Below, in pieces: positions 5,994 to 52,727 of a stretch of 64,000 nt of DNA. The notes below the pieces were generated by a model. It was given only the letters and a program-made list of their open reading frames with translations, was not told the DNA's origin and searched no databases. A program made the position numbers and the translations under genes. This stretch comes from Spirochaetota bacterium (GTDB taxonomy: Bacteria > Spirochaetota > UBA4802 > UBA5550): NCBI GenBank assembly GCA_035403465.1, contig DAONFG010000013.1:1830-65829 (forward strand), read 5' to 3'. Each line of letters begins with the position of its first letter. Position 1 is the stretch's first letter.

Positions 5994-6074
5994 ATGGCCT
6001 CCATTTTTAAACAGGGTCTGCCGCATAAAGTATATGGTTCAGTGCTTACCGGACGGTAAGATGAGAGAAAGAGA

Positions 6075-6242
6075 TTATTTGCCGCTGCCCCTTGTAAGCG
6101 GGCAAGCAAGGACCTTGAACTCCCCGTTCTTGGGATCCTGGCTTGTTGCCATGGAACTTAGTGAACCGCCGTAATTACACAATACCTGGTAGTTTCTCAG
6201 TTCTATATGATGTTTGCATTTTTTGCAATCTTCAAGTTTCAT
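6075..6242 (-). CDS. small Cys-containing protein (55 aa), possible zinc-ribbon
   Basis: Manual translation gives MKLEDCKKCKHHIELRNYQVLCNYGGSLSSMATSQDPKNGEFKVLACPLTRGSGK. It falls below the track's length cutoff. It is co-directional with and just upstream of the MgtC-like gene. Confidence 0.4.
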   Translation of the reverse strand: MKLEDCKKCKHHIELRNYQVLCNYGGSLSSMATSQDPKNGEFKVLACPLTRGSGK

Positions 6243-6523
6243 TATTCTGCTCCGGTGATTCAGTCTGAATATTTAAAAGATTAAAATTATGTCACTTCTA
6301 TTATAAAGCCTTAGATAATTATTTCAATGGTTATTGTCAATAATTAAATTAGATATAAAATGGACCGGCTGTTTTTTTCAATTCCTGTATATAATCTTTA
6401 CCGCAATTGTCAAGTAAAGCAGAAGATTTTTGCAATCAGCAGTTCCCTCACACTCCACTGTTTTCATACTTGACACCATGATTATGCTGTTGTATTTATT
6501 AAGTAAGTTAAAAGGCGGGGAAG

Positions 6524-7273
6524 ATGCTGAAAAACAAAGGTAACGTTAAAAAAATATCCGGGAAAAACAAGCTTCTGCTTATTACAGGCCTTGCCGTGGC
6601 GGTAATCTTCCTGGTACTGAACGCTGTATTCGGATTTTTTAACTGCGGAATGCGGCGGGAATACAGGGGTGTTGATGATAAATTTATCAGGGATATTCGC
6701 GATAAGATCACAATGCTTGAAAAAGAGGAAGTAAAAGACCCTGCTGCTATAGGCCGGCTTGCGGAGCAATATAACCTCCTGGGAACAATTTATCTCGAGA
6801 AGGAACTTTATGGACCTGCAATCGACGCCCTTAACAATTCAATGAAATACGGCAACACATCAGCCCCTATTTATTATTCCCTGGGACTGGCATACGCGAA
6901 CAGAAGTGTTGCAACGAATTCTGCTGACGACCTGGACAAGGCCGAAGCATGCTACAGGAAAGCAATAGAGAAGAGGCCGGGATTTCAGGACAGCATGTAT
7001 GGACTTGCAGTGCTCCTTTTCTACCACAGGGATAAAAAGGAAGAGGCCATGAATCTTGTTAACGAGATTGTGGCAAAAAACCCGGCATTCTACGAGGCAA
7101 GGTTTGCACAGGGAAGATTTCTTTACGAAACAGGGAACAGGGAACAGGCTTTATCAGTCTACCAGTCGCTCGCCTCTGACCTTGAGAAGCTCCCTCCGTC
7201 AGGAATTGTGAATGAGTATAAAAGCAACTGCAGCAACAACATAAATACGCTGATATCCGAACTGGGGAAATAA
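6524..7273 (+). CDS. membrane-anchored TPR-repeat protein
   Basis: It has an N-terminal TM helix (LLLITGLAVAVIFLVLNAVFGFF). TPR-like helical pairs follow (AEQYNLLGTIYLEKELYGPAIDALNNS..., GLAYANR...AEACYRKAIEKRP, YEARFAQGRFLYETGNREQAL). Confidence 0.7.
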   Translation: MLKNKGNVKKISGKNKLLLITGLAVAVIFLVLNAVFGFFNCGMRREYRGVDDKFIRDIRDKITMLEKEEVKDPAAIGRLAEQYNLLGTIYLEKELYGPAIDALNNSMKYGNTSAPIYYSLGLAYANRSVATNSADDLDKAEACYRKAIEKRPGFQDSMYGLAVLLFYHRDKKEEAMNLVNEIVAKNPAFYEARFAQGRFLYETGNREQALSVYQSLASDLEKLPPSGIVNEYKSNCSNNINTLISELGK

Positions 7274-7280
7274 CAGGATA

Positions 7281-8069
7281 TCAGCGCCATTCCTCGTCAG
7301 GCAGAGGTCTTTGAATTCTTTTGTCCTTTGAATCTTCGACGAATTTTTCTTTAAGTATTACTATATCTACCCTGCGGTTATATGCCCTGCCCTCGGGTGT
7401 TGAGTTATCTTCAATGGGCCTGAACTCTCCGAATGCGACTGAGGAAAGCTGCCTCTGGTCTACGGATTCCTCGTAAGCAAGGTGCTGAAGAACCGCAAGG
7501 CTCCTTGCCGAAGAAAGCTCCCAGTTAGTCCGAAAACCCCCCTTTGCCTGTGACTGGGTAACCTTACTGTCATCAGTATAGCCTTCAATACGCACAAAGT
7601 TCGGGACGTATTTTATTATATTGGATATCTTTCTAAGTACGGGTCTCATCTCCTCTTTCAGTTCAGCTGAACCCGGATCAAAAAAGAAATCTGAAGAGAG
7701 GCTTATCACAAGGCCCCTCTCATCCTCCTGGATCCTTATGTACTTGGCCTTGACCTCGAGTTTAAGCAGCTCTGTTGCGCGGCTGATCATCTTCTTGCCC
7801 AGGGACTTCCCTTTTTCGTTCGAAGGGAGGGCCATCATGTTATGCCCCATTTCTGTCAGTTTTCCCTTGGACAAAGACCTGCCACCTTCCATTATACCAA
7901 GGTTACCCTGGAAAGAGTTAATTATCATTTTAAAATCGTCAGCAGCGTTTGTTGTGACATCACCCATCATGACGATGAAAAAGCACATGAGCAGGTTGTT
8001 CATGTCCCCCATGGTAACCATCCACGCCGGCGGTGGTGGCGCTGAACTCTTTTTTCTTGGTTTACCCAA
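7281..8069 (-). CDS. motB: flagellar motor stator protein MotB (OmpA-like C-terminus)
   Basis: The N-terminal plug/TM is PAWMVTMGDMNNLLMCFFIVMM, with the conserved Asp. The C-terminal peptidoglycan-binding motif is RIEGYTDD...NWELSSARSLAVLQHL...NRRVDIVI. Confidence 0.9.
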   Translation of the reverse strand: MGKPRKKSSAPPPPAWMVTMGDMNNLLMCFFIVMMGDVTTNAADDFKMIINSFQGNLGIMEGGRSLSKGKLTEMGHNMMALPSNEKGKSLGKKMISRATELLKLEVKAKYIRIQEDERGLVISLSSDFFFDPGSAELKEEMRPVLRKISNIIKYVPNFVRIEGYTDDSKVTQSQAKGGFRTNWELSSARSLAVLQHLAYEESVDQRQLSSVAFGEFRPIEDNSTPEGRAYNRRVDIVILKEKFVEDSKDKRIQRPLPDEEWR

Positions 8070-44335: not shown

Positions 44336-44666
44336 TTATAATATGGACGTTTATAATGCATTAATCAACCCTTAACCGGAAATAAAATAATCCGGCATTG
44401 CAATATGTGATATTCCGTTTCCCTGTTTGTCAATTATGATAATACTTTTTTATTGCGCTGATATTCAGAAGGTACTGGCATATAATGCTCCCTGGTAAAT
44501 AAAATATATAATTAATCTGATTTTTCAATCCTGAAATATTGACTGAAGATCGATTTTTATACAATATACTTAGATAAGCTGTTAGTTCAGGGATCATTGT
44601 TAATCTATCCCCGATTGAAAATGAAGCTGCCAGGGTAACAATTAACATATATTGAGAGGTTTCCTG

Positions 44667-45584
44667 ATGTTAAGACTTACACAGATTATCCGTCATGCTG
44701 CTGTACTAATCCTTGTATACACATTAGCCATGGGAATCTCCGCCACCCTGGCCGGGGAAACATCGGACTTTACTGTTCGAATGAACGACCGGCAGGCCCT
44801 GAAAAAACTTGAACCATGGAAGAGATCCATGCTGGACACATACCTTGCAGCAAACAGGCGCTCATCAAAACCCGATGCAGTGAGTTTTACCATGATGACT
44901 TTATCACTCATGCCCGGAAAAGATATATACTTTGCCGACGGATACGCCCGGGGCGGACACGAATTTTTAATTCCCCTGCTGCTCATTGCAGATAAAGATA
45001 AAGCCCGCATTCTTGATACCGGCACCGACCGACTTGACTCCGATGGAAATAAAAAATCTTTTACGGTTTCAAATGCCTGCACCCGGGAGTATTATGCGGA
45101 AACTGACCGGTACGACTCAGGTTCCGGCGCTAAATGTGACAAGTGCTTTAACCAGCTTAAAAAACATTCATGCATTGACCTGAATTCACTGCTGACAGAA
45201 ACGATAAAATCAGCTGTTAATGAAAATAAAATTGGCAGGGAATTTATATTAAACGGGGCAAGATGCATGGCAATCCTGGTAAACAATTCACGGGAGGCTT
45301 ACATTCCTGAAAAATCCGGGGATATAATAGATGAGCGGTTTAAAGCGCTGATCAAATCCGGAAAACAGCGGACAGGCGCGGCCTGTTGGAATAAAGAAAA
45401 CAAATCCATAGAATCCCCGTTAATACAGGTTTCGGGAAACAGTTTCAGCATATCAGGAGTTATGGAAATTACTGGAGGTTCACCGGGTAACAGCTGCCTC
45501 ATCGAATTTGAATTCTCATGGGACGGGAAAACAATCCGCTTCATACAGAAGGAACTGGCAAAGACCATAACGTACATTGAATAA
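44667..45584 (+). CDS. hypothetical secreted protein
   Basis: The signal peptide starts at ATG 44667 (MLRLTQIIRHAAVLILVYTLAMGISATLAG). It contains several Cys residues, and no motif was recognised. Confidence 0.5.
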   Translation: MLRLTQIIRHAAVLILVYTLAMGISATLAGETSDFTVRMNDRQALKKLEPWKRSMLDTYLAANRRSSKPDAVSFTMMTLSLMPGKDIYFADGYARGGHEFLIPLLLIADKDKARILDTGTDRLDSDGNKKSFTVSNACTREYYAETDRYDSGSGAKCDKCFNQLKKHSCIDLNSLLTETIKSAVNENKIGREFILNGARCMAILVNNSREAYIPEKSGDIIDERFKALIKSGKQRTGAACWNKENKSIESPLIQVSGNSFSISGVMEITGGSPGNSCLIEFEFSWDGKTIRFIQKELAKTITYIE

Positions 45585-45669: not shown

Positions 45670-47367
45670 TCAGTCATTCATCCTGTATTCAGATTTCATC
45701 GGGTAAACCCATTTCTCCCATACCCTCATGAACTTATCCATATCCGCAACGGGGTTCATGATCATCTTCATGCAGTATGCAAGCTGTTCAGGTGAATTTG
45801 ACTTCTTCTGGTAGAGCTGCACAGCGTACTTTGAGAAGTCCCTGACAAGCACGTCAAAGATCATATCAAGTACATCGTCTTCTACTTTCTGGAGGTGCGC
45901 ATTTTCAATGATGAGCTGGCCGTAAGCAACAACGGTCATCAGTTCACCTATTGCAAGGAGATAATCGATATCTGAATTCTGTGCTTTTGTAGGTGTTGCC
46001 TTGGCAAGGAATTCCTTGAACACGAGTATCTGCTTTTTAAGAACATTTATATTCGGAAGGTCCTTGCTGTTATACGCTATATTGTAATCATGGAACTGTA
46101 TCCTGCTCAGGCCGCTTGTTGGTCCCTGGTTCAGGAGGAAAGTGTCATTCCTGTCATCAGCAACAGACGGGATTGCAGGGAACTGGCCGGGGTTGAAGAA
46201 GTAATTTGTTATGAACTTAACAACAAGCGCCATGTTTACATGCACTGTACCTTCAAGTTTGGGATACATCCTGATCTCAACTGTAGCCATCTCGAAGTAT
46301 GGTTCACTCTCGAATCCCCTTGCCGCAATAACGTCCCACAGCAGGTTGATTACCTCTTCCCCTTCCCTTGTGACCTTCATTTTACAGAGCGGATCATAAA
46401 GCAGGTAGCGCCTGTCTTCTGCAGATGCCGTCCTCATATAGTCAACAGCGCGAAGGTTAAAGAGCTTCATCGCGCATATGCGCAGGTAAGCGTCTGTAAG
46501 GAGCTGTTTAACATGCGGAAAATCTGTTACATACTTTCCGTAAAGGTTCCTGTTTGCAGCATGCTCAACCGCTTCATAGAATGCGTGTGTGGCGATACCC
46601 ACGGCTCCTGGCCCCAGGTTGAATTTACACACGTTTACAGTATTCAGCATGTTGTCCCACGCCTTGGGACCTTTTTCCGATATATCAGCATTGGTTATGG
46701 GGTAGTCATGAACAGCATATTCAGAAACATAGTTCTGGTGGGCAACAACGTTCCGGATACACTCATAGTTTTTATGTTTTGAATCAACTGTGAAGAATAC
46801 ATATTCATTTGTATCAGCCATCTTGGCGAATGTTGATACCATTGCGGCTTCATTACCGTTCCCGATATAATACTTGTCGCCGTTTGCCTTGTATGTGCCG
46901 TCACCCTGCGGGTAAAGCATCATATCGCTTGAATAGATGTCTGCACCATGTTCTTTTTCTGAAAGGCCGAAAGCGAATACTTCACCCTCTTCAAGAAGTT
47001 TCGCGGCCTTATGCTTCATCTCCTCATTGCTTCCCATCCAGATGGGGCATATTCCGAGCATTGAAACGTCCCATACATACCAGTATGTGATCCCGTAGAA
47101 TCCCATGAGTTCAGCCCAGTGGAAAGTCCGGTATGTATCCCACCTGTTGTCCTTTGCGCCATATCCTGCAGGCGTGAGCAGTTTGGCAAAGTATTTGTGT
47201 TCCTTCTGAAAATCAACAAAATCCTTTGGCCATGTCCTGTTGTGGTAGTCCTCTTTAACCTTTTTGAGTCCTTTCTTTTCGAAAAACTCGATGGTCTTAA
47301 GCATCATCTCCTTCGATTCCTTGTCAGGAAACTCCACATTGTATTTTTTCGGATTTAAAAGTAGCAT
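45670..47367 (-). CDS. acyl-CoA dehydrogenase-family protein, long form, paralogue 2
   Basis: It is colinear with 35576..37291, and by eye roughly half the positions are identical. Shared blocks are FGLSEKEHGADIYSS, GDGTY.ANG.KYYIGNGN, KLEGT.HVNMAL and DYLLA.GEL.T.VAYG.LIIE. Confidence 0.75.
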   Translation of the reverse strand: MLLLNPKKYNVEFPDKESKEMMLKTIEFFEKKGLKKVKEDYHNRTWPKDFVDFQKEHKYFAKLLTPAGYGAKDNRWDTYRTFHWAELMGFYGITYWYVWDVSMLGICPIWMGSNEEMKHKAAKLLEEGEVFAFGLSEKEHGADIYSSDMMLYPQGDGTYKANGDKYYIGNGNEAAMVSTFAKMADTNEYVFFTVDSKHKNYECIRNVVAHQNYVSEYAVHDYPITNADISEKGPKAWDNMLNTVNVCKFNLGPGAVGIATHAFYEAVEHAANRNLYGKYVTDFPHVKQLLTDAYLRICAMKLFNLRAVDYMRTASAEDRRYLLYDPLCKMKVTREGEEVINLLWDVIAARGFESEPYFEMATVEIRMYPKLEGTVHVNMALVVKFITNYFFNPGQFPAIPSVADDRNDTFLLNQGPTSGLSRIQFHDYNIAYNSKDLPNINVLKKQILVFKEFLAKATPTKAQNSDIDYLLAIGELMTVVAYGQLIIENAHLQKVEDDVLDMIFDVLVRDFSKYAVQLYQKKSNSPEQLAYCMKMIMNPVADMDKFMRVWEKWVYPMKSEYRMND

Positions 47368-47503: not shown

Positions 47504-47665
47504 AAAAGATTGCACCTTTATTGTCAATATTTTTGCGCCGTTTTTTATAACAAAATTCTCTTAAATGAAACATATTCCATAACCGGAACAAAAAACCTGA
47601 TAATTATTTGACCTTGTATGCCGGTGATAAACATTGGATAAAAACCTGATTAAGGGAGTAAAAAT

Positions 47666-48820
47666 GTGAAAAAACAGGGACCAGAAGTATCAATTCCTGA
47701 ACTTGACCAGATTCTTGAATCATATATAAAAAGCAGCCAGAACCTGAATTATGCCCTGAAAATAACAGGACATCCGGGCGTTGGAAAATCCGCCATTGTA
47801 AAACAGGTTGCAGACAGGCTTAACTACTATTTTATCGATACACGCCTTGCGTTCAAGGAGAATGTAGACCTCGGGGGATACCCTGTACCTGACAGCGAAT
47901 CAGGGCAGATGATATACTACAGGCCCAGGTTTATTCCGCCCGCTGCAGTTCCCGAAGGCTGTAACGGCATAGTATGGTTTCTTGATGAATCGAACAGGGC
48001 GCACCCCACAGTTATCCAGACCCTGTTCCAGATAATTACAGAGGGGAAATGCGGCGAACACAGCCTCCCCGGTAAAACCGCAATCATTCTTGCCGGTAAC
48101 CTTGGAGACATGGACGGAACAACAATCACTGACTTTGACGACTCTGCGCTTGATGGAAGGCTTGCGATCTTTCACCTTAAGCCTTCGGCAGAACACTGGC
48201 TGCCATGGGCCTACAGCCAGGGGATCCACCCCTCGGTGATCCGGTACATCTCGATGTTCCCGGAAAAGCTGTGGGATGAACGCAACATCAATCCCAATCC
48301 GCGCGGCTGGCACCAGGTATCAGGCGCACTTATACACTCGTACAACCTTCCCGCAGAGGAAGCCTTCGCCGAATTCCTCGCTGGTGAAAATACAACCCTC
48401 GTCAAGCTTATAAGTACACTGCTCGGCGAAATAACAGCGCGGGATTTTATCATGCAGATCACTTCCCCCAGGATGATCACTTCACGTGATATCCTTGATG
48501 GATCAGCAGAAAAACTTGAACTGCTTAAAAACCGCGCCATCCCGTCCGAGGACCTGCTCTGGGCCCTGAACGGGACAATCGAAACCATGAGGGAGCTTGT
48601 CATACGCGAAAACGGGAACATTCCGGGCGCCAGTTTCGTGGAACTTGCGAACATGCTGAAATTCATTGCATACTCCCGCGGCGATATACGCATGACATAC
48701 TTCTTCCTGCTGCTGAAGGAATGCGGTATATTCACCAGCATACCTGCAGCAGTTAAACTGGTCGATGACCAGGAGATGCGCATAGAACTGAAACAGAAGT
48801 TCGGGGAACTTCTTAAATAA
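47666..48820 (+). CDS. AAA+ ATPase, MoxR/RavA-like (AAA_5-type) with C-terminal extension
   Basis: GTG start, 7 nt after GGGAG. Walker A is GHPGVGKS, Walker B is IVWFLDESNRA, and a sensor-1-like AIILAGN follows. The C-terminal ~170 aa have no recognisable motif. Confidence 0.8.
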   Translation: MKKQGPEVSIPELDQILESYIKSSQNLNYALKITGHPGVGKSAIVKQVADRLNYYFIDTRLAFKENVDLGGYPVPDSESGQMIYYRPRFIPPAAVPEGCNGIVWFLDESNRAHPTVIQTLFQIITEGKCGEHSLPGKTAIILAGNLGDMDGTTITDFDDSALDGRLAIFHLKPSAEHWLPWAYSQGIHPSVIRYISMFPEKLWDERNINPNPRGWHQVSGALIHSYNLPAEEAFAEFLAGENTTLVKLISTLLGEITARDFIMQITSPRMITSRDILDGSAEKLELLKNRAIPSEDLLWALNGTIETMRELVIRENGNIPGASFVELANMLKFIAYSRGDIRMTYFFLLLKECGIFTSIPAAVKLVDDQEMRIELKQKFGELLK

Positions 48821-48831
48821 AGGTACTCCCG

Positions 48832-50283
48832 ATGCAGAAAGTTGAAGATACAATCAGCGGTCTATGGAGAAAGAGCCGTTTCGCATCGTACTTCTACCAC
48901 GGGATAGACCTTGCCGAATCCGGGGACTTACCCACTCTCGGGCTCATGGTCTACACGTCGCGCCTGACGCTCTTCTTTAACCCGGAATTCACATCGCAGC
49001 TTACAGTGGATGAACTTACCGGCCTGCTGGTCCATGAGATGCTTCATGTTGTCCTGAACCACGAGCACAGGGGTAACCGTGACCAGGACATCTACAAGCG
49101 CAACCTTGCACAGGACATGGTGATAAACTCGTATTTAAAAGAGAACCGGAAAACCTTCTTTTCCCGGAAGAGCAGCTATATCCATGATACACCTGAACTT
49201 ATCCTTCCCGCCGGACTCCCGGTAATCCCCGGAACTTTTTTCAGGGACACGGGAAACTATGACCCGGTCTGGGAGGATGTTTACTCATGGCTCAGGGAAC
49301 AATCACGCGAAGAGATAAGGAAGTTCAGCTTTAATGAAAATGAAGAAGGTTCAGGAAATACCCTGGCGAATGTTGAACCCGGGATACGGCAGATGCAGCA
49401 GACCCTCAACAGCCTTGACCTGTCGTATAACACCGCGCCGGAACAGAACCTGTCATCGTTCAAAAAGAGGGACGCGCTGATATTCGAGAAGCCTGACGGC
49501 GACCCGCTATCCACTGGCGTGCACATAATGAAGAACAGGAACGAAATCGATCCCTCATCAACAAGGCTCAACCACCTGATGCTCATGGCGGAAAAGGATG
49601 AACTCTGCAGGGAGGAGAGGATATTCGGCGAAATACGCGGCCTTATCGAATCCGTAAAAAAAAGGGACATGTCGTGGTCTGAAAAAATCCGCACTATCGT
49701 TGATTCAACGTCACAGTCAGATGAATATGAATACACTTATCATAGGTTCAATAAACGCTATTTTTCACAGGGCATATACTCCCCCGGCAGATCCTTCAAA
49801 TACAGAAACGTGCTCACTGTTGCCGTTGACGTATCGGGATCAATGGTTATGAAACCCGGCGACATTGAGGCTGCCTTTGGAATAATTGAAGACCTGCTCC
49901 CGCGCTTCAGGGTCTGCCTGCTGTGCATTGACGAAACAGTCTTTATACCAGAGAAGCAGGGTGATATGTTTACACGTTCAGCTGACAATGCAAAGCCATA
50001 CGAATATAAAAAGGGTGACTGGCGCTTTATAAAAACCGGCAGCAGCGGAACAACATACTTTGAACCTCTTTTCAACACATTCATGCAGGGCCACAGGGAA
50101 CTGCTCATTGTTATCACTGACGGATTCATCTATGACCTTGACAGGCTCCGGAAATATCACAACACTCTCTGGCTCATAAGCGAACACAGGGATGAACCGT
50201 TCACACCGGCATTCGGCAGGATTGTGAAGATAGAATCAGTAAAACCTGCCGGACTTCACCTGAATCCGGGGAATGCAGTATGA
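48832..50283 (+). CDS. putative metallopeptidase (HExxH) + VWA-like domain protein (DUF2201/COG3864-type)
   Basis: The N-terminal motif is LLVHEMLHVVLNHEHRG. The C-terminal VWA has MIDAS-like LTVAVDVSGSM and LIVITDGF. It starts 11 nt after the AAA gene. Confidence 0.75.
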   Translation: MQKVEDTISGLWRKSRFASYFYHGIDLAESGDLPTLGLMVYTSRLTLFFNPEFTSQLTVDELTGLLVHEMLHVVLNHEHRGNRDQDIYKRNLAQDMVINSYLKENRKTFFSRKSSYIHDTPELILPAGLPVIPGTFFRDTGNYDPVWEDVYSWLREQSREEIRKFSFNENEEGSGNTLANVEPGIRQMQQTLNSLDLSYNTAPEQNLSSFKKRDALIFEKPDGDPLSTGVHIMKNRNEIDPSSTRLNHLMLMAEKDELCREERIFGEIRGLIESVKKRDMSWSEKIRTIVDSTSQSDEYEYTYHRFNKRYFSQGIYSPGRSFKYRNVLTVAVDVSGSMVMKPGDIEAAFGIIEDLLPRFRVCLLCIDETVFIPEKQGDMFTRSADNAKPYEYKKGDWRFIKTGSSGTTYFEPLFNTFMQGHRELLIVITDGFIYDLDRLRKYHNTLWLISEHRDEPFTPAFGRIVKIESVKPAGLHLNPGNAV

Positions 50284-50981
50284 CAGAACCAAAGACAGCA
50301 ATGAATGAACTTTACGCAGCAGGCCTTGAATCCGGCGCAGACCTTGAATTCCTGAGCCGCGCATTGATAGTTTCAGGCGACGCGGAACATATCTTCCTTG
50401 CAGGTAAAAACTGGAAGAGCTTTGACTACAATGCGGGCCTGGAAAAACTTTTTGACTCAGGAAATAATGAACTGGTACACAAGGCCGGAATATTCTGGAC
50501 TTCATTTGATTATGATGCCGGCATGGATTTCCTTGCGCACCGTGGCAACGCAGACTACATATACCGCGCAGGCCGCTTCTGGCCGGGTTACAATCACGAT
50601 TTCGGCCTTGAACTGCTTGGCAGAATGAAGAGCGCTAAGTTTATCTACTACGCAGGCAAGGAATGGAAAAAGTTTAATTTCACAAGGGGATTTGAACTGC
50701 TGATGGAAACGGATTCAGCGGAGTTTACATTCTACGCAGGGGCATACTGGAAGGAATTCGATTTCAGCAGGGGCTTCACGAAGCTGTTTTCGCTTGGTGT
50801 TCCTGAATACATCTACAGGGCCGGGACGCTATGGCGCGTGTTTGATTACGCTGCCGCGTGGCGCATGCTTGAAATTCTTGTTACAAGCGGTGAAGAGTGG
50901 CGGGGAAGGGCATTTGCGAATAACAGGTGGAAACCGGAACTTATAAAAATATGGGACACACTGTGGCTTGAACAGGTTTAA
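50280..50981 (+). CDS. novel tandem-repeat protein (six ~28-aa repeats, consensus IYxAGxxWxxFDYxxGxELL)
   Basis: The ATG overlaps the upstream stop (ATGA). The repeats begin IFLAGKNWKSFDYNAGLEKL, VHKAGIFWTSFDYDAGMDFL, IYRAGRFWPGYNHDFGLELL, IYYAGKEWKKFNFTRGFELL, TFYAGAYWKEFDFSRGFTKL and IYRAGTLWRVFDYAAAWRML. Confidence 0.7.
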   Translation: MTEPKTAMNELYAAGLESGADLEFLSRALIVSGDAEHIFLAGKNWKSFDYNAGLEKLFDSGNNELVHKAGIFWTSFDYDAGMDFLAHRGNADYIYRAGRFWPGYNHDFGLELLGRMKSAKFIYYAGKEWKKFNFTRGFELLMETDSAEFTFYAGAYWKEFDFSRGFTKLFSLGVPEYIYRAGTLWRVFDYAAAWRMLEILVTSGEEWRGRAFANNRWKPELIKIWDTLWLEQV

Positions 50982-51004
50982 GAGACTGCCCTTAATGTAT
51001 ACAA

Positions 51005-51047
51005 TGTCATCACGAGGAGACCGAAGGTCGACGTGGTGATCTGTTTT
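51005..51047 (+). terminator. TGTCAT-flanked hairpin element, copy 3, acting as likely terminator of the AAA-VWA-repeat operon
   Basis: The sequence is tgtcATCACgaggaGACCgaagGGTCgacGTGGTGATctgtttt. It is an interrupted stem with a GAAG loop, followed by a T-run. Confidence 0.55.
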
Positions 51048-51159
51048 GCCCGGTTATAGCGTCATGTGACTTCAACGGTTTAAATAAACATTGTTTATTC
51101 AATACAGATTGCCACGGCGCAATGACGTTTACTTTCAGGACAGCCTCTTTAACTCCATG

Positions 51160-52086
51160 CTACTTGTTCAGTGTGGAATCGAATTTCTTTATTTCCGGCT
51201 TAACGCTCTTTACGTCTGTCTTCTCGAAATTCTGGACAGCATCTTTCTGCTCATCCTTCTTTGCTTCCACGTCTCCCTTTATCTGCTCCTGCTGGCCCTT
51301 GATGTCATCCTTGATTGCCTGGATGTTCGCCTGGTCTTTTGCCTTCTGGTCCTCGACAGCCTGTTTATTCTTTGCTTTCTCATCAACAACAGCCTGCCTG
51401 ATCTCCTCTCTCTGCTCTTCGAATCTGCGTCTTATATCCTCGCGGATAACTTTAATGTCATCCTTGATCTTCTGGATGTTGGCGCGGTTCTGTTCTTTAA
51501 GGTCTGCAACACTTATAGGTTTACCCTTTTCAATATTGGCCTCTTTACCGGCTTCAACCTCTTTGTATGTGCTGTCATCGCTTCCAGATTCTTTAACTAC
51601 AACCACACCATCTATACAGGCTACATTGCTCTTGCCCTCATCCTCTGAAACAAGAAACTCTGTTCCACGGACACCCGCAACAGATGTCGGTGTTGTAACC
51701 TTGAACTTCTCGCCGTCAACCAGCTTGCGAGTAACCTTGGAAAACATTTTACCGTTTTCAACATAGAACTCGGAGTTTTCCCTGTTATTTGCCACATTCC
51801 TTACAAGTTCTGTCATAACAACACTGCTGTTCTCAAGGATCCTTACAACATTAGTGCCGAAATAGATATCAACAACTGCCTTAGGCCCTGTTTTAATAGT
51901 CATACCCTGTTTGACTGCATCGCCGATCTTTGCAGCTGCGGTCTGTCCGCCAGCCACGATTTTTACATCACCAGCCATAAAGTTAATCAGTCCTTCATAA
52001 TTAACAGTAGTAACCTGATCTTTTTTGCAGGAGATAAATCCAAGCACTGCCGCCAGCAGTACAGCAACAACGGTTATTTTTTTCAC
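51160..52086 (-). CDS. FecR-domain lipoprotein with C-terminal K/E/Q-rich coiled coil
   Basis: GTG 52086 lies 4 nt after GGAGGA. It gives VKKITVVAVLLAAVLGFISC, a lipoprotein signal. The FecR-like core is FKVTTPTSVAGVRGTEFLV. The track's longer start (52245) lacks a signal peptide. Confidence 0.7.
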   Translation of the reverse strand: MKKITVVAVLLAAVLGFISCKKDQVTTVNYEGLINFMAGDVKIVAGGQTAAAKIGDAVKQGMTIKTGPKAVVDIYFGTNVVRILENSSVVMTELVRNVANNRENSEFYVENGKMFSKVTRKLVDGEKFKVTTPTSVAGVRGTEFLVSEDEGKSNVACIDGVVVVKESGSDDSTYKEVEAGKEANIEKGKPISVADLKEQNRANIQKIKDDIKVIREDIRRRFEEQREEIRQAVVDEKAKNKQAVEDQKAKDQANIQAIKDDIKGQQEQIKGDVEAKKDEQKDAVQNFEKTDVKSVKPEIKKFDSTLNK

Positions 52087-52379
52087 AACATCCTCCAGAT
52101 TTTGCTTCGTGATTTGATTGGTATCTGCAGCTGTATCCCGTTCTGCATTTATCATTCGAAGTATATGTCCACGGTTTAGTGCTGCATACACTGTTTTTAT
52201 AAATGCATAAATCAGAAACTGCAATGATATACAAATTATTATCAAATATCAGGAAATCAACCCTATTTTCAGCATTTTTTTTAAAACAGGGCGCTTTAAA
52301 CGCTGTAAGCCATAAAAAATTTTCACTTTTTGCTCCTCTGAAGCGTAGTAAATGTAAATACACCCGAAAAGGAGGACTT

Positions 52380-52727
52380 ATGCTGAACTACGCAGCAGCA
52401 ACGATTGAAGGATTTGTTACCCACGATCCCCAGGTTAAAAAAACCAAGACAGGGAAATCCGTGTGTACATTTGCCCTGGCCATCAATCATTATTCAAAGA
52501 ACGATGAAGCGCCCAAGGTTTCGTTCATCGATGTAGAGACATGGGAAAAAATCGCGGAGATCTGCTCAAAAAACATTAAGAAAGGTAAAAGGATTATGGT
52601 CATCGGATCACTTAAGCAGGACAGGTGGGAGGATGACAAGGGCAAGGTGCAATCAAGGCTGAAGATCATAGGGAGTGAGATCAGGTTTCTTGAATCACTT
52701 AAGAGTACAGCAGAGGCGGCGGTTTAA
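52380..52727 (+). CDS. ssb: single-stranded DNA-binding (OB-fold) protein, short form lacking acidic tail
   Basis: AAGGAGGA RBS precedes ATG 52380. MLNYAAATIEGFVTHDPQVKKTKTGKSVCTFALAIN...FIDVETWEKIAE...KGKRIMVIGSLKQDRWEDDKGK matches the SSB OB fold. The protein ends ...STAEAAV without a DDDIPF-type tip. Confidence 0.75.
   Translation: MLNYAAATIEGFVTHDPQVKKTKTGKSVCTFALAINHYSKNDEAPKVSFIDVETWEKIAEICSKNIKKGKRIMVIGSLKQDRWEDDKGKVQSRLKIIGSEIRFLESLKSTAEAAV

What the first reader, a model, noticed from the sequence alone, without database searches (positions are those of the whole stretch)
47666..51047. AAA+ (RavA/MoxR-like) + HExxH-peptidase/VWA + novel repeat protein: a compact three-gene ATP-driven module of unknown function
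Seen in the sequence:
- Gene 1 has Walker A GHPGVGKS, Walker B IVWFLDESNRA, and a C-terminal extension with no motif I recognise.
- Gene 2 starts 11 nt later. It fuses an N-terminal HExxH site (LLVHEMLHVVLNHEHRG) to a C-terminal VWA/MIDAS (VAVDVSGSM ... LIVITDGF).
- The gene 3 ATG overlaps the gene 2 stop (ATGA at 50280-50283). It encodes only tandem 28-aa repeats.
- A hairpin plus T-run at 51005-51047 closes the unit. About 300 bp of AT-rich DNA separates it from the divergent acyl-CoA dehydrogenase.

Established knowledge: MoxR-class AAA+ ATPases act with VWA partners (RavA-ViaA, CbbQ-CbbO, NorQ-NorD). The peptidase+VWA fusion is the DUF2201/COG3864-type partner, and to my knowledge its biochemical role is unknown. 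Comparative genomics has associated MoxR-vWA pairs plus a variable third gene with stress and conflict systems.

Inference: the repeat-only third protein is the variable adaptor, substrate or effector, and the trio is an undescribed system.
Basis: partly seen in the sequence, partly recalled or inferred. Interest (0 to 1): 0.72.

Follow-up and report, generated by a model that had tools for sequence, protein, structure and literature searches.

The report
AAA motor, peptidase-VWA, repeat-protein operon
This is a real, strongly conserved three-gene operon of uncultured spirochaetes: a MoxR-like ATP motor, a zinc-peptidase/VWA partner and a new kind of helical repeat protein. It looks like a cytoplasmic protein-remodelling machine, often sitting next to a fatty-acid enzyme, and not like a defence system.

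Summary
All sequence observations hold. The three ORFs are g1 47666-48820, g2 48832-50283 and g3 50280-50981. The Walker A/B, HExxH and MIDAS motifs, the 11-nt gap, the ATGA overlap and six exact 28-aa repeats are all present. The window comes from a Spirochaetota MAG.

- g1 is a weak but consistent AAA_5 (MoxR-like) ATPase.
- g2 is a divergent DUF2201 zincin plus VWA protein. Its best fold match is NorD.
- g3 is a confidently modelled alpha-solenoid with no Pfam, NCBIfam or PDB family.

g1-g2-g3 is contiguous in about 50 species-level genomes of Spirochaetota and a few Desulfobacterota, in several different neighbourhoods. The genes are usually translationally coupled and under purifying selection.

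Nothing points to defence. There are no PADLOC hits, and the flanks are stable housekeeping genes. About two-thirds of trio loci adjoin a VLCAD-like acyl-CoA dehydrogenase. It is divergent in spirochaetes, sometimes with a coupled TetR gene, and co-directional in Desulfobacterota. That enzyme family mostly occurs without the trio.

The AAA+DUF2201 pair itself is already known from phages and plasmids. Verdict: a new three-component variant of the MoxR-VWA chaperone theme, with an unknown client. Moderate interest.

The parts
47521..47551 (+). Promoter-like block (TTGTCA ... TATAAC) inside the 298-bp, 28% GC intergenic region. It is the best-conserved stretch of the leader.
   Evidence: The alignment of the ACD-g1 intergenic region from the window, L001, L002 and L007 shows this block nearly invariant while the rest diverges. 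Sequence read. GC. Function is inferred, not shown.
47666..48820 (+). g1: 384-aa AAA+ ATPase, MoxR-like at the AAA_5 level, 43 kDa, soluble.
   Evidence: ORF. PF07728 AAA_5 scores 27.1 bits against a cutoff of 22, and all 30 orthologues hit it. phrog_1297 'ATPase' matches at 2e-50 over res 19-336. Phage homologues are annotated as MoxR ATPase. dN/dS is 0.07-0.08. No TM segment.
47768..47791 (+). g1 Walker A, GHPGVGKS (res 35-42).
   Evidence: Invariant G35 H36 P37 G38 G40 K41 S42 in 30 orthologues.
47972..47989 (+). g1 Walker B, VWFLDE (res 103-108).
   Evidence: Invariant W104 F105 L106 D107 E108.
48832..50283 (+). g2: 483-aa DUF2201-type protein with an N-terminal zincin peptidase domain, a disordered linker (about res 170-204) and a C-terminal VWA domain with MIDAS.
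   Evidence: PF13203 hits at 4.6e-16. phrog_1314 hits at 6e-41 over res 15-469. The AF2 model has pLDDT 74. The best Foldseek hit is NorD in the NorQD complex (9qhe_G, E 8e-4), followed by many VWA domains; the N-terminal part matches small zincins, selecase and MATCAP. dN/dS is 0.07-0.15.
49033..49068 (+). g2 zinc site, HEMLHVVLNHEH (H68 E69 H72 H77 H79).
   Evidence: All five residues are invariant in 36 homologues.
49828..49842 (+). g2 MIDAS DxSxS (D333 S335 S337). The distal MIDAS residues are T408 and D430-G431 (nt 50116-50124 for T429-D430-G431).
   Evidence: Invariant columns. VWA fold.
50280..50981 (+). g3: 233-aa (27 kDa) alpha-solenoid, aromatic-rich (19% F+Y+W), soluble.
   Evidence: ORF. 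No Pfam, NCBIfam, PADLOC or PHROG family. The AF2 model has pLDDT 89.8 and pTM 0.82, with 16 helices. No PDB fold match at E<1e-3. One uncharacterised phage protein matches at TM 0.5. dN/dS is 0.12-0.18.
50379..50882 (+). Six tandem 28-residue repeats of g3 (res 34-201), consensus xxEYIYRAGxxWxxFDYxxGLxxLxxxG.
   Evidence: Perfect 28-residue spacing of the AGxxW anchors, far above shuffles. No repeat is detectable at DNA level. A profile finds 249 cluster representatives at E<=1e-3.
51006..51047 (+). Hairpin (9-bp stem plus inner 4-bp stem) followed by CUGUUUU. A possible weak terminator.
   Evidence: Fold is -18 kcal/mol, but z = -0.5 against shuffles. Not called by the terminator scan.
45670..47367 (-). 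Divergent neighbour: a 565-aa VLCAD-like acyl-CoA dehydrogenase. It is the only gene outside the trio whose linkage recurs across phyla, so it is a candidate client or co-regulated partner.
   Evidence: PF00441 and PF02770 hit. PDB ACAD matches. Adjacent in about 33 of about 50 trio loci. Co-directional ACD>g1>g2>g3 in L063, L078 and L079, with a 6-nt gap in L078. Only about 6 of 80 ACD loci carry the trio.

Best explanation
The trio is a chromosomal, vertically inherited operon that encodes a cytoplasmic ATP-driven machine for remodelling and processing proteins.

Shown:
- The three genes are contiguous and mostly translationally coupled.
- They are under purifying selection.
- They are kept together in several unrelated genomic neighbourhoods.
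- g1 has intact AAA+ motifs.
- g2 has an intact zincin site and an intact MIDAS in a VWA fold. Its closest solved relative by fold is NorD, the partner of a MoxR ATPase.
- g3 is a six-repeat alpha-solenoid.

Inferred, by analogy with NorQ/NorD and CbbQ/CbbO:
- g1 forms a hexamer.
- The VWA domain of g2 docks on the g1 ring.
- The MIDAS metal binds an acidic residue of a target.
- ATP hydrolysis pulls on or twists the target.
- The zincin domain, tethered by a flexible linker, then cleaves the exposed target.
- g3 is the stoichiometric specificity subunit that presents the target, as helical-repeat scaffolds usually do.

The most likely field of action is acyl-CoA (fatty-acid) metabolism. The leading single candidate client is the adjacent VLCAD-like acyl-CoA dehydrogenase, at about 0.25-0.3. 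The trio is not a defence island.
For: Synteny:
- g2 is directly upstream of g3 in 52 of 57 loci with at least 3 kb of upstream DNA. This is 47 by the script plus five threshold artefacts (L055, L057, L064, L073, L074).
- The trio also occurs in unrelated contexts: L072 (PPDK), L073 (NrfD/Fer4), L045-48, L050/55/57/64 (NrfHA) and Desulfobacterota.

Coupling and selection:
- g2 and g3 overlap in 27 of 48 loci, 20 of them by the 4-nt ATGA-type overlap. A further 13 have gaps of 30 nt or less.
- dN/dS is 0.07-0.18 for all three genes.

Catalytic residues and folds:
- Catalytic and MIDAS residues are invariant.
- The g2 fold matches NorD and other VWA domains plus small zincins.
- The g3 solenoid model has pLDDT 89.8.
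- All three proteins lack TM segments.

Mechanistic precedent:
- In NorQD, a VWA finger sits in the AAA+ pore and the MIDAS binds acidic residues of the client (PMC9976466, PMC13036017).

Link to acyl-CoA metabolism:
- The ACD is adjacent in about two-thirds of trio loci and in both phyla, in two orientations.
- A TetR gene is translationally coupled to g1 and divergent from two ACD genes in about 14 species.

Against defence:
- No PADLOC hit for g2 or g3.
- The flanks are conserved housekeeping genes: HisRS, SSB and acetyl-CoA hydrolase.
- No close relatives on viral contigs or plasmids.
Against: - No interaction among the three proteins was tested.
- g1 is only a borderline member of the MoxR-type families. 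AAA_5 scores 27 bits, AAA_3 and bpMoxR are below cutoff, and the best PDB sequence hits are ClpB D2 and CobS at E>1e-3.
- PF09967 does not hit the window g2.
- The ACD family is much more widespread than the trio and has variable neighbours. About 74 of 80 ACD loci lack the trio, and about a third of trio loci lack the ACD.
- In one sub-clade an MCP-signal membrane protein sits between g1 and g2, which the ACD idea does not explain.
- Two g3 orthologues (L044, L047) have no g1 or g2 within 7 kb.
- The roles of g3 as adaptor or as substrate cannot be separated by sequence.
Confidence: 0.5

Rival explanations
1. Dedicated activase or maturation factor of the neighbouring VLCAD-like acyl-CoA dehydrogenase. 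The trio would load or repair FAD, release a tightly bound inhibitor or CoA adduct, or trim the enzyme, as CbbQO does for Rubisco and NorQD does for NOR.
For: - The ACD is adjacent in about 33 of about 50 trio loci.
- The linkage survives a change of orientation between phyla. It is divergent in Spirochaetota. It is co-directional in L063, L078 and L079, with a 6-nt ACD-g1 gap in L078.
- A TetR gene is coupled to g1 and divergent from the ACD genes.
- MoxR-VWA pairs are typically dedicated to one metabolic enzyme (PMC9976466).
Against: - Reverse test: only about 6 of 80 metagenomic loci of the same ACD family (58-86% identity) have the trio nearby, including ACDs 85-86% identical to the window's (L080, L082). 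The enzyme therefore clearly works without the trio.
- About a third of trio loci have other neighbours.
- Known activases of this type have no peptidase domain.
Confidence: 0.25
2. Regulated-proteolysis switch in which g3 is itself the substrate. The solenoid would sequester a partner, for example a regulator or an enzyme. It would be unfolded by g1 and cut by the g2 zincin on a signal, releasing that partner.
For: - g3 is made in step with g2, because their reading frames overlap.
- g3 evolves fastest of the three: 38-67% identity against 55-85% for g1, and it has the highest dN/dS.
- Each repeat carries a conserved F-D dipeptide. This gives a row of carboxylates that could serve as MIDAS ligands. 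This last point is inference only.
Against: - No cleavage site, degron or disordered tail is conserved in g3. Its C-terminal tail is variable.
- The highly conserved residues of g3 are mostly those of the solenoid core, as expected for a stable scaffold.
Confidence: 0.15
3. An anti-phage or other conflict system of the MoxR-vWA ternary type. The repeat protein would be the sensor or effector, which is the reading the first reader leaned towards.
For: - Three-gene MoxR-vWA systems with a variable third component are described as conflict systems (PMC7159879).
- Distant AAA+DUF2201 pairs lie on phages and conjugative or mega-plasmids.
- g1 has a weak BrxF hit, E 4.5e-4, over the P-loop region only.
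Against: - No PADLOC hit for g2 or g3.
- g3 is not a VMAP, iSTAND, FtsH or beta-propeller protein, and bpMoxR is below cutoff.
- There is no toxic effector domain.
- The locus is fixed between housekeeping genes across dozens of species.
- All three genes are under strong purifying selection with no hypervariability.
- The trio is absent from viral contigs and plasmids.
Confidence: 0.07
4. A domesticated module derived from a mobile element, still doing the unknown job it does in N4-like and rV5-like phages and in plasmids. That job could be virion assembly, or replication or establishment of the element.
For: - g1 matches phrog_1297 at 2e-50 and g2 matches phrog_1314 at 6e-41.
- The gene order is the same, ATPase then peptidase-VWA, in Vibrio phage phi50-12.
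- Iyer et al. proposed a role in virion assembly for the jumbo-phage pair (PMC7824862).
Against: - Identity to phage proteins is only about 20-29%.
- No other phage or plasmid genes lie in the window neighbourhood.
- g3 has no counterpart in phages or plasmids.
- The locus is vertically inherited.
Confidence: 0.03

Closest known systems
AAA+ ATPase plus DUF2201 (PF13203/PF09967, 'VWA-like domain-containing protein') gene pairs of phages and plasmids. Examples are Vibrio phage phi50-12 gp052/gp051, PHROGs 1297/1314, and the Ralstonia and Paraburkholderia megaplasmids.
   Same: - Same gene order, ATPase then zincin-VWA.
- Same domain pair, same HExxH site and same MIDAS.
- Profile-level homology for both proteins.
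- Function is uncharacterised in all of them. Iyer et al. only proposed a role in virion assembly.
   Different: - The window pair is chromosomal and lies in a stable housekeeping context.
- g2 is about 80 aa longer, with a disordered insert, and is too diverged for PF09967.
- The third gene differs. It is a helicase in phi50-12, a 297-aa unclassified protein placed between the pair on plasmids, and the 28-aa-repeat solenoid here.
NorQ/NorD and CbbQ/CbbO, the MoxR-class AAA+ and VWA chaperone pairs.
   Same: - An AAA_5-type ATPase is encoded next to a protein with an N-terminal domain, a disordered linker and a C-terminal VWA/MIDAS domain.
- NorD is the best structural match of g2 in the PDB.
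- These pairs give the mechanistic template: VWA finger in the pore, MIDAS on the client.
   Different: - NorD and CbbO have no peptidase domain.
- Their clients (NOR, Rubisco) are known and encoded alongside.
- They have no solenoid third subunit.
- g1 is 384 aa, with about 100 extra C-terminal residues compared with the 30-kDa NorQ (size).
- Sequence similarity to them is not detectable by HMMER.
RavA-ViaA (E. coli).
   Same: A MoxR-type ATPase with a VWA partner. This is a precedent for action on a respiratory flavoenzyme (from my own knowledge, not tested here).
   Different: - No sequence match to RavA in the PDB search.
- ViaA lacks a zincin domain.
MoxR-vWA ternary conflict systems (VMAP, iSTAND, FtsH and beta-propeller types; Kaur et al. 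2020, PMC7159879).
   Same: A three-gene logic: MoxR, vWA and one further conserved component.
   Different: - The third component is none of the four defining types.
- bpMoxR is below cutoff.
- There are no effector domains, no hypervariability and no island context.
Bat (Bacteroides aerotolerance) operon of Bacteroides, Leptospira and Borrelia: MoxR, DUF58, VWA and TPR proteins.
   Same: A spirochaete MoxR-VWA operon that includes helical-repeat (TPR) proteins and still has no established function (PMC3557215, PMC5700661).
   Different: - Bat proteins are membrane-anchored and include DUF58, and none has a peptidase.
- Here all three proteins are soluble.
- g3 matches no TPR model.

Membership tests
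MoxR-class AAA+ ATPases (AAA_3/AAA_5, COG0714) | Intact Walker A and Walker B | tested here: met
   GHPGVGKS and VWFLDE are invariant in 30 orthologues.
MoxR-class AAA+ ATPases (AAA_3/AAA_5, COG0714) | Pfam AAA_5 (PF07728) at or above the gathering score | tested here: met
   27.1 bits against a cutoff of 22. All 30 orthologues match. This is a weak margin.
MoxR-class AAA+ ATPases (AAA_3/AAA_5, COG0714) | Pfam AAA_3 (PF07726, MoxR proper) at or above the gathering score | tested here: not met
   13.3 bits against a cutoff of 27.
MoxR-class AAA+ ATPases (AAA_3/AAA_5, COG0714) | Helix-2 insert, pre-sensor-1 hairpin and an all-alpha lid with an SPR-type sensor 2 | not tested
The sequence has ALDGRL (res 161-166) and NPRGW (res 211-215), which resemble the MoxR 'ALLDRF' and 'SPRA' boxes as I recall them. 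This is a lead only.
MoxR-class AAA+ ATPases (AAA_3/AAA_5, COG0714) | Adjacent gene encodes a VWA/MIDAS protein | tested here: met
   g2 starts 11 nt downstream. VWA fold and MIDAS are confirmed.
RavA-ViaA | Detectable homology to RavA (AAA+ with triple-helical and LARA domains) and a ViaA-type partner | tested here: not met
   RavA is absent from the PDB hits at E<=1 with the single sequence and with the profile. The partner carries a zincin domain.
DUF2201 peptidase-VWA family | PF13203 (DUF2201_N) above the gathering score, with HExxH | tested here: met
   59.7 bits against a cutoff of 23.2. H68, E69 and H72 are invariant.
DUF2201 peptidase-VWA family | PF09967 (VWA-like DUF2201) C-terminal domain | tested here: inconclusive
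   There is no hit in the window protein at E<=1. At least 14 homologues at 43-50% identity carry PF09967. phrog_1314 aligns over res 15-469. The model matches VWA folds. The MIDAS residues are invariant.
DUF2201 peptidase-VWA family | Encoded next to an AAA-type ATPase | tested here: met
   Seen in the window, in phage phi50-12 and on plasmids.
MoxR-vWA ternary conflict systems (Kaur et al. 2020) | Third component is a VMAP, an inactive STAND, FtsH, or a beta-propeller fused to vWA | tested here: not met
   g3 has no Pfam hit and is an alpha-solenoid. bpMoxR scores 13.3 bits against a cutoff of 27.
MoxR-vWA ternary conflict systems (Kaur et al. 2020) | Linked effector domains, variability and a conflict-island context | tested here: not met
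   No PADLOC hits for g2 or g3. Housekeeping flanks are conserved. dN/dS is 0.07-0.18.
Bat operon | DUF58 protein, membrane-anchored VWA proteins and TPR proteins | tested here: not met
   No DUF58 or TPR Pfam hits. The maximum 19-residue hydropathy is 1.44 or less, so no TM segment.
Known helical repeat families (TPR, Sel1, HEAT, ARM, ANK, PPR) | A match to a curated repeat model or a convincing fold superposition | tested here: not met
   - No Pfam or NCBIfam family.
- No Pfam match in 10 longer repeat-family proteins either.
- No PDB match by sequence.
- The best Foldseek hits are Sel1-like or designed repeats, at E>=6.5e-3 and TM<=0.32.
Dedicated enzyme-maturation MoxR-VWA pair (NorQD, CbbQO, CoxDE type) | Consistent genomic linkage with the client enzyme gene | tested here: inconclusive
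   The ACD is adjacent in about two-thirds of trio loci and in two phyla. The trio is present at only about 6 of 80 ACD loci.

The most novel reading that the evidence does not exclude
The trio is the first MoxR-VWA machine that acts on a beta-oxidation flavoenzyme. The solenoid g3 would recruit the VLCAD-like acyl-CoA dehydrogenase. g1 and g2 would then remodel it and proteolytically trim or clear it, under acyl-CoA (TetR) control. This would give the widespread but uncharacterised DUF2201 peptidase-VWA family its first biochemical role, and it would define a new 28-residue repeat as a client-recognition module.
Probability: 0.2. Interest if true: 0.7.

Novelty: new variant of a known kind. 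Interest (0 to 1): 0.42.

Why it matters
AAA+ ATPase plus DUF2201 peptidase-VWA pairs occur in bacteria, plasmids and many phages, and none has a known function. This spirochaete and Desulfobacterota version adds two handles that the mobile-element versions lack. One is a fixed, translationally coupled third subunit with a confidently predicted fold. The other is a recurrent link to a specific acyl-CoA dehydrogenase and a TetR regulator, which gives a concrete and testable candidate client.

It also defines an unclassified 28-residue helical repeat family with about 250 clusters at 50% identity, some of them on phage-like contigs. If the client hypothesis fails, the finding is still a tidy but ordinary lineage-specific chaperone operon.

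Tried and rejected
- The word-index protein search with g3 gave only 3 homologues, which suggested extreme rarity. This was an artefact. The exhaustive profile search found 249 clusters, and the genome scan found 64 species-level loci.
- PDB sequence searches with single sequences and with profiles gave nothing usable for g2 or g3, and only ClpB or P-loop noise for g1.
- Rfam found nothing in the leader or the operon, nor in the whole window. There are no tRNAs.
- TRF found no DNA-level repeat in g3.
- The terminator claim is weak. The hairpin is not better than shuffles.
- PADLOC gave no defence family for g2 or g3.
- Viral-contig scans with the g3 and g2 alignments found no relatives. g3 is absent from phage and plasmid records.
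- The last protein search, with g1, returned only close 'hypothetical' relatives and did not reach other clades.
- 'Obligate ACD maturation factor' was considered after L078 and L079. It was then downgraded by the reverse scan of ACD loci.
- The long repeat proteins P0128 and P0124 were checked for AAA/VWA neighbours, and none were found.

Full report
**1. What is in the sequence**

The window carries three co-directional ORFs exactly as reported: g1 47666-48820 (GTG start, 384 aa), g2 48832-50283 (483 aa) and g3 50280-50981 (233 aa). g1 and g2 are 11 nt apart. The g3 ATG overlaps the g2 stop as ATGA.

Upstream lies a 298-bp intergenic region of 28% GC, and beyond it a divergent 565-aa acyl-CoA dehydrogenase, here called ACD. 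Downstream there is a hairpin at 51006-51040 followed by four U. It folds at -18 kcal/mol, but that is no better than shuffled sequence (z = -0.5), and the terminator scan did not call it. It is at best a weak terminator.

Rfam finds nothing in the leader, the operon or the whole window, and there are no tRNAs. A g2 copy that is 100% identical is annotated in a Spirochaetota MAG.

**2. The three proteins**

*g1.* It hits Pfam AAA_5 just above threshold, at 27.1 bits against a cutoff of 22. AAA_3 and bpMoxR are below threshold. All 30 aligned orthologues hit AAA_5, and Walker A and B are invariant. PDB sequence searches give only ClpB-D2, CobS and P-loop noise, and RavA is absent. g1 matches PHROG 1297 ('ATPase') at 2e-50 over residues 19-336. 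It also has about 800 phage homologues at 25-29% identity, several annotated as MoxR ATPase. Only the last 50 or so residues are clade-specific. I could not model g1.

*g2.* It hits PF13203 (DUF2201_N) at 4.6e-16, but it does not hit the VWA-like model PF09967. Several homologues at 43-50% identity do carry PF09967. H68/E69/H72/H77/H79 and the MIDAS residues D333/S335/S337/T408/D430 are invariant in 36 sequences. The AlphaFold model (pLDDT 74) shows two domains joined by a disordered linker at about residues 170-204. Its best PDB match is NorD in the NorQD complex. A long list of VWA domains follows, and the N-terminal part matches minimal zincins, selecase and MATCAP. The peptidase and VWA assignment is therefore confirmed.

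*g3.* It has no family in Pfam, NCBIfam, PADLOC or PHROGs and no PDB relative by sequence. It contains six 28-residue repeats in perfect register at residues 34-201, far above shuffles. It also has a degenerate N-terminal unit and a conserved C-terminal cap. There is no repeat at DNA level.

The g3 model is confident, with pLDDT 89.8 and pTM 0.82. It is a 16-helix alpha-solenoid. Foldseek finds only generic Sel1-like, TPR or designed repeats in the PDB, at E>=6.5e-3 and TM<=0.32. In the viral library one uncharacterised phage protein matches at TM 0.5.

All three proteins lack TM segments.

**3. Is the trio a unit?**

The first word-index search found only three g3 homologues, which was misleading. 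An exhaustive profile search found 249 cluster representatives at E<=1e-3. A scan of one genome per species found 64 loci. Nearly all are Spirochaetota or 'Leptospirales' MAGs, and a few are Desulfobacterota-type MAGs.

Of 57 loci with at least 3 kb upstream of g3, g2 is directly upstream in 52. This is 47 by the script plus five threshold artefacts (L055, L057, L064, L073, L074). g1 precedes g2 wherever the contig allows.

The exceptions are as follows.
- Two g3 orthologues are orphans: L044 and L047.
- In L043 and L054, g3 lies 2.5-5 kb downstream of g2.
- In one sub-clade an MCP-signal membrane protein is inserted between g1 and g2: L034, L036 and L041. It also sits directly upstream of g2 in L043, L051 and L054.
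- One long phage-like repeat protein matches only weakly: L075.

g3-type proteins taken from the profile search (P0001, P0125, P0133) also follow an AAA plus DUF2201_N pair, in unrelated neighbourhoods.

g2 and g3 overlap in 27 of 48 loci, 20 of them by a 4-nt overlap. dN/dS is 0.07-0.08 for g1, 0.07-0.15 for g2 and 0.12-0.18 for g3. This is a genuine, selected three-gene module.

**4. Context and what it says about function**

In the window's clade the flanks are syntenic across many species. They are the ACD, a FecR-domain protein, SSB, acetyl-CoA hydrolase and HisRS. That is the signature of vertical inheritance, not of an island. PADLOC gives nothing for g2 or g3. Viral-contig scans and plasmid searches find no close relatives.

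The only outside gene whose linkage recurs is the 565-aa VLCAD-like ACD. It is adjacent in about 33 of about 50 trio loci. In about 14 species a TetR gene is translationally coupled to g1 and divergent from two ACD genes. In three Desulfobacterota-type loci (L063, L078, L079) the ACD is co-directional and immediately upstream of g1, with a 6-nt gap in L078. Linkage that survives a change of orientation across phyla suggests a functional or regulatory tie.

I then ran the reverse test with an ACD alignment against metagenome contigs. Of the 80 best loci, at 58-86% identity, only about six have g1, g2 or g3 nearby. The ACD neighbourhoods are otherwise highly variable. The trio is therefore not a general requirement of this enzyme family. 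At most it is a lineage-specific accessory.

**5. Relation to known systems**

The AAA plus DUF2201 pair is not new. The same order and domains occur in N4-like phage phi50-12, where gp052 is the ATPase and gp051 is the PF13203+PF09967 protein, mislabelled HNH endonuclease. They also occur on betaproteobacterial megaplasmids, where a 297-aa unclassified protein sits between the ATPase and the DUF2201 gene. Iyer et al. noted a MoxR plus metallopeptidase-vWA pair in jumbo phages and proposed a role in virion assembly (PMC7824862). No biochemical function is on record in the library searched.

The mechanistic template comes from NorQ/NorD. There, one VWA protein plugs the AAA+ hexamer pore with a beta-finger, its MIDAS binds acidic residues on the client, and ATP hydrolysis remodels a linker and the client (PMC9976466, PMC13036017).

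The MoxR-vWA ternary conflict systems of Kaur et al. are defined by VMAP, iSTAND, FtsH or beta-propeller third components. g3 is none of these. The spirochaete Bat operon combines MoxR, DUF58, VWA and TPR proteins, but those are membrane-bound and have no peptidase.

**6. Most likely mechanism**

*Shown.* The trio is a co-inherited, co-translated set of soluble proteins. It comprises an intact AAA+ motor, an intact zincin and MIDAS-VWA protein, and a helical-repeat scaffold.

*Inferred.* A g1 hexamer engages the g2 VWA domain. The MIDAS holds a carboxylate of the target. ATP-driven pulling exposes the target to the tethered zincin. g3 supplies specificity as an adaptor, or it is itself the regulated substrate. 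The target probably lies in acyl-CoA metabolism, and the adjacent ACD is the best single candidate, at about 0.25.

*Unexplained.* The MCP insertion and the orphan g3 genes remain unexplained.

**7. Verdict**

The trio is real and undescribed, and g3 is a new repeat family. However, the 'RavA-like' label and the conflict-system lean are not supported, and the core pair is already known from mobile elements. This is a new three-component variant of the MoxR-VWA chaperone kind. Interest is moderate, at 0.42. All carriers found are labelled MAGs or metagenome assemblies, and none is a cultured isolate. The function therefore remains inference.

Noticed in passing
L034, L036, L041 (between g1 and g2); L043, L051, L054 (upstream of g2): In one spirochaete sub-clade, a multi-TM protein with a methyl-accepting chemotaxis signalling domain (PF00015) is inserted tightly between g1 and g2. 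L036 has two copies. In L043 and L054, g3 is displaced 2.5-5 kb downstream. No explanation so far accounts for this.
   Followed up: partly
L021, L023, L024, L028-L031, L035, L037, L038, L052, L061, L068: A TetR-family regulator gene ends 4 nt inside the g1 start in several of these loci and is divergent from two tandem acyl-CoA dehydrogenase genes. That gives a four-gene operon TetR-g1-g2-g3. The window's clade lacks the TetR gene.
   Followed up: partly
L075 (ENA contig of 226 kb), 6001-7929; also P0145, P0187: Long, lysine-rich proteins (349-1624 aa) carry many copies of the same 28-aa repeat, interleaved with a 'KLPKKSLKLE' motif. P0124 lies on a phage-like contig packed with small ORFs that have no family hit, plus a Peptidase_S74 tail-fibre chaperone. 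No AAA or VWA gene is nearby.
   Followed up: partly
L070, L071 (P0128) and P0136: Proteins of 762-985 aa have a shared N-terminal domain of about 330 aa and 10-20 'YLYxAGxDWPxxRY' repeats of the same family. Their neighbourhoods have no Pfam hits at all. Origin unknown.
   Followed up: no
L076 (NC_055824.1, gp051) and L077 (NC_025830.1, Av05_00170); phrog_1314: Phage DUF2201 peptidase-VWA proteins are annotated as 'HNH endonuclease' in RefSeq and in PHROGs. This is probably a propagated misannotation, since the Pfam content is PF13203+PF09967.
   Followed up: partly
L160, L162 (Ralstonia and Paraburkholderia megaplasmids); L161 (Allomeiothermus plasmid): Canonical DUF2201 genes on plasmids sit in backbone regions near ssb, parB, H-NS and virB genes. 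On the two megaplasmids the order is ATPase, a 297-317-aa unclassified protein, then DUF2201. This is another three-gene version with a different extra subunit.
   Followed up: partly
window 44652-45584 (+): A 310-aa ORF with a hydrophobic N-terminus and no Pfam hit lies between the GGDEF-EAL gene and the ACD. Its close relative L002 has only about 540 nt there, so this gene is an insertion or loss difference between near neighbours.
   Followed up: no
window 51160-52245 (-), with mirror ORFs 51091-51766 (+): The convergent FecR-domain protein has a long, low-complexity K/E/Q-rich C-terminal half. It generates long spurious ORFs on the opposite strand.
   Followed up: no
window 52203-52727 (+), L001-L017: A short (about 115 aa) SSB gene stays 1-4 kb downstream of g3 throughout the window's clade. 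An ssb gene also directly precedes the distant DUF2201 gene on the Allomeiothermus plasmid. This is probably coincidence, but I did not test it.
   Followed up: no
The word-index protein search returned 3 homologues for a family that has at least 64 species-level genomic loci. Several orthologues seen in NCBI MAG contigs were not retrieved as proteins. Rarity inferred from that tool alone would have been wrong.
   Followed up: yes
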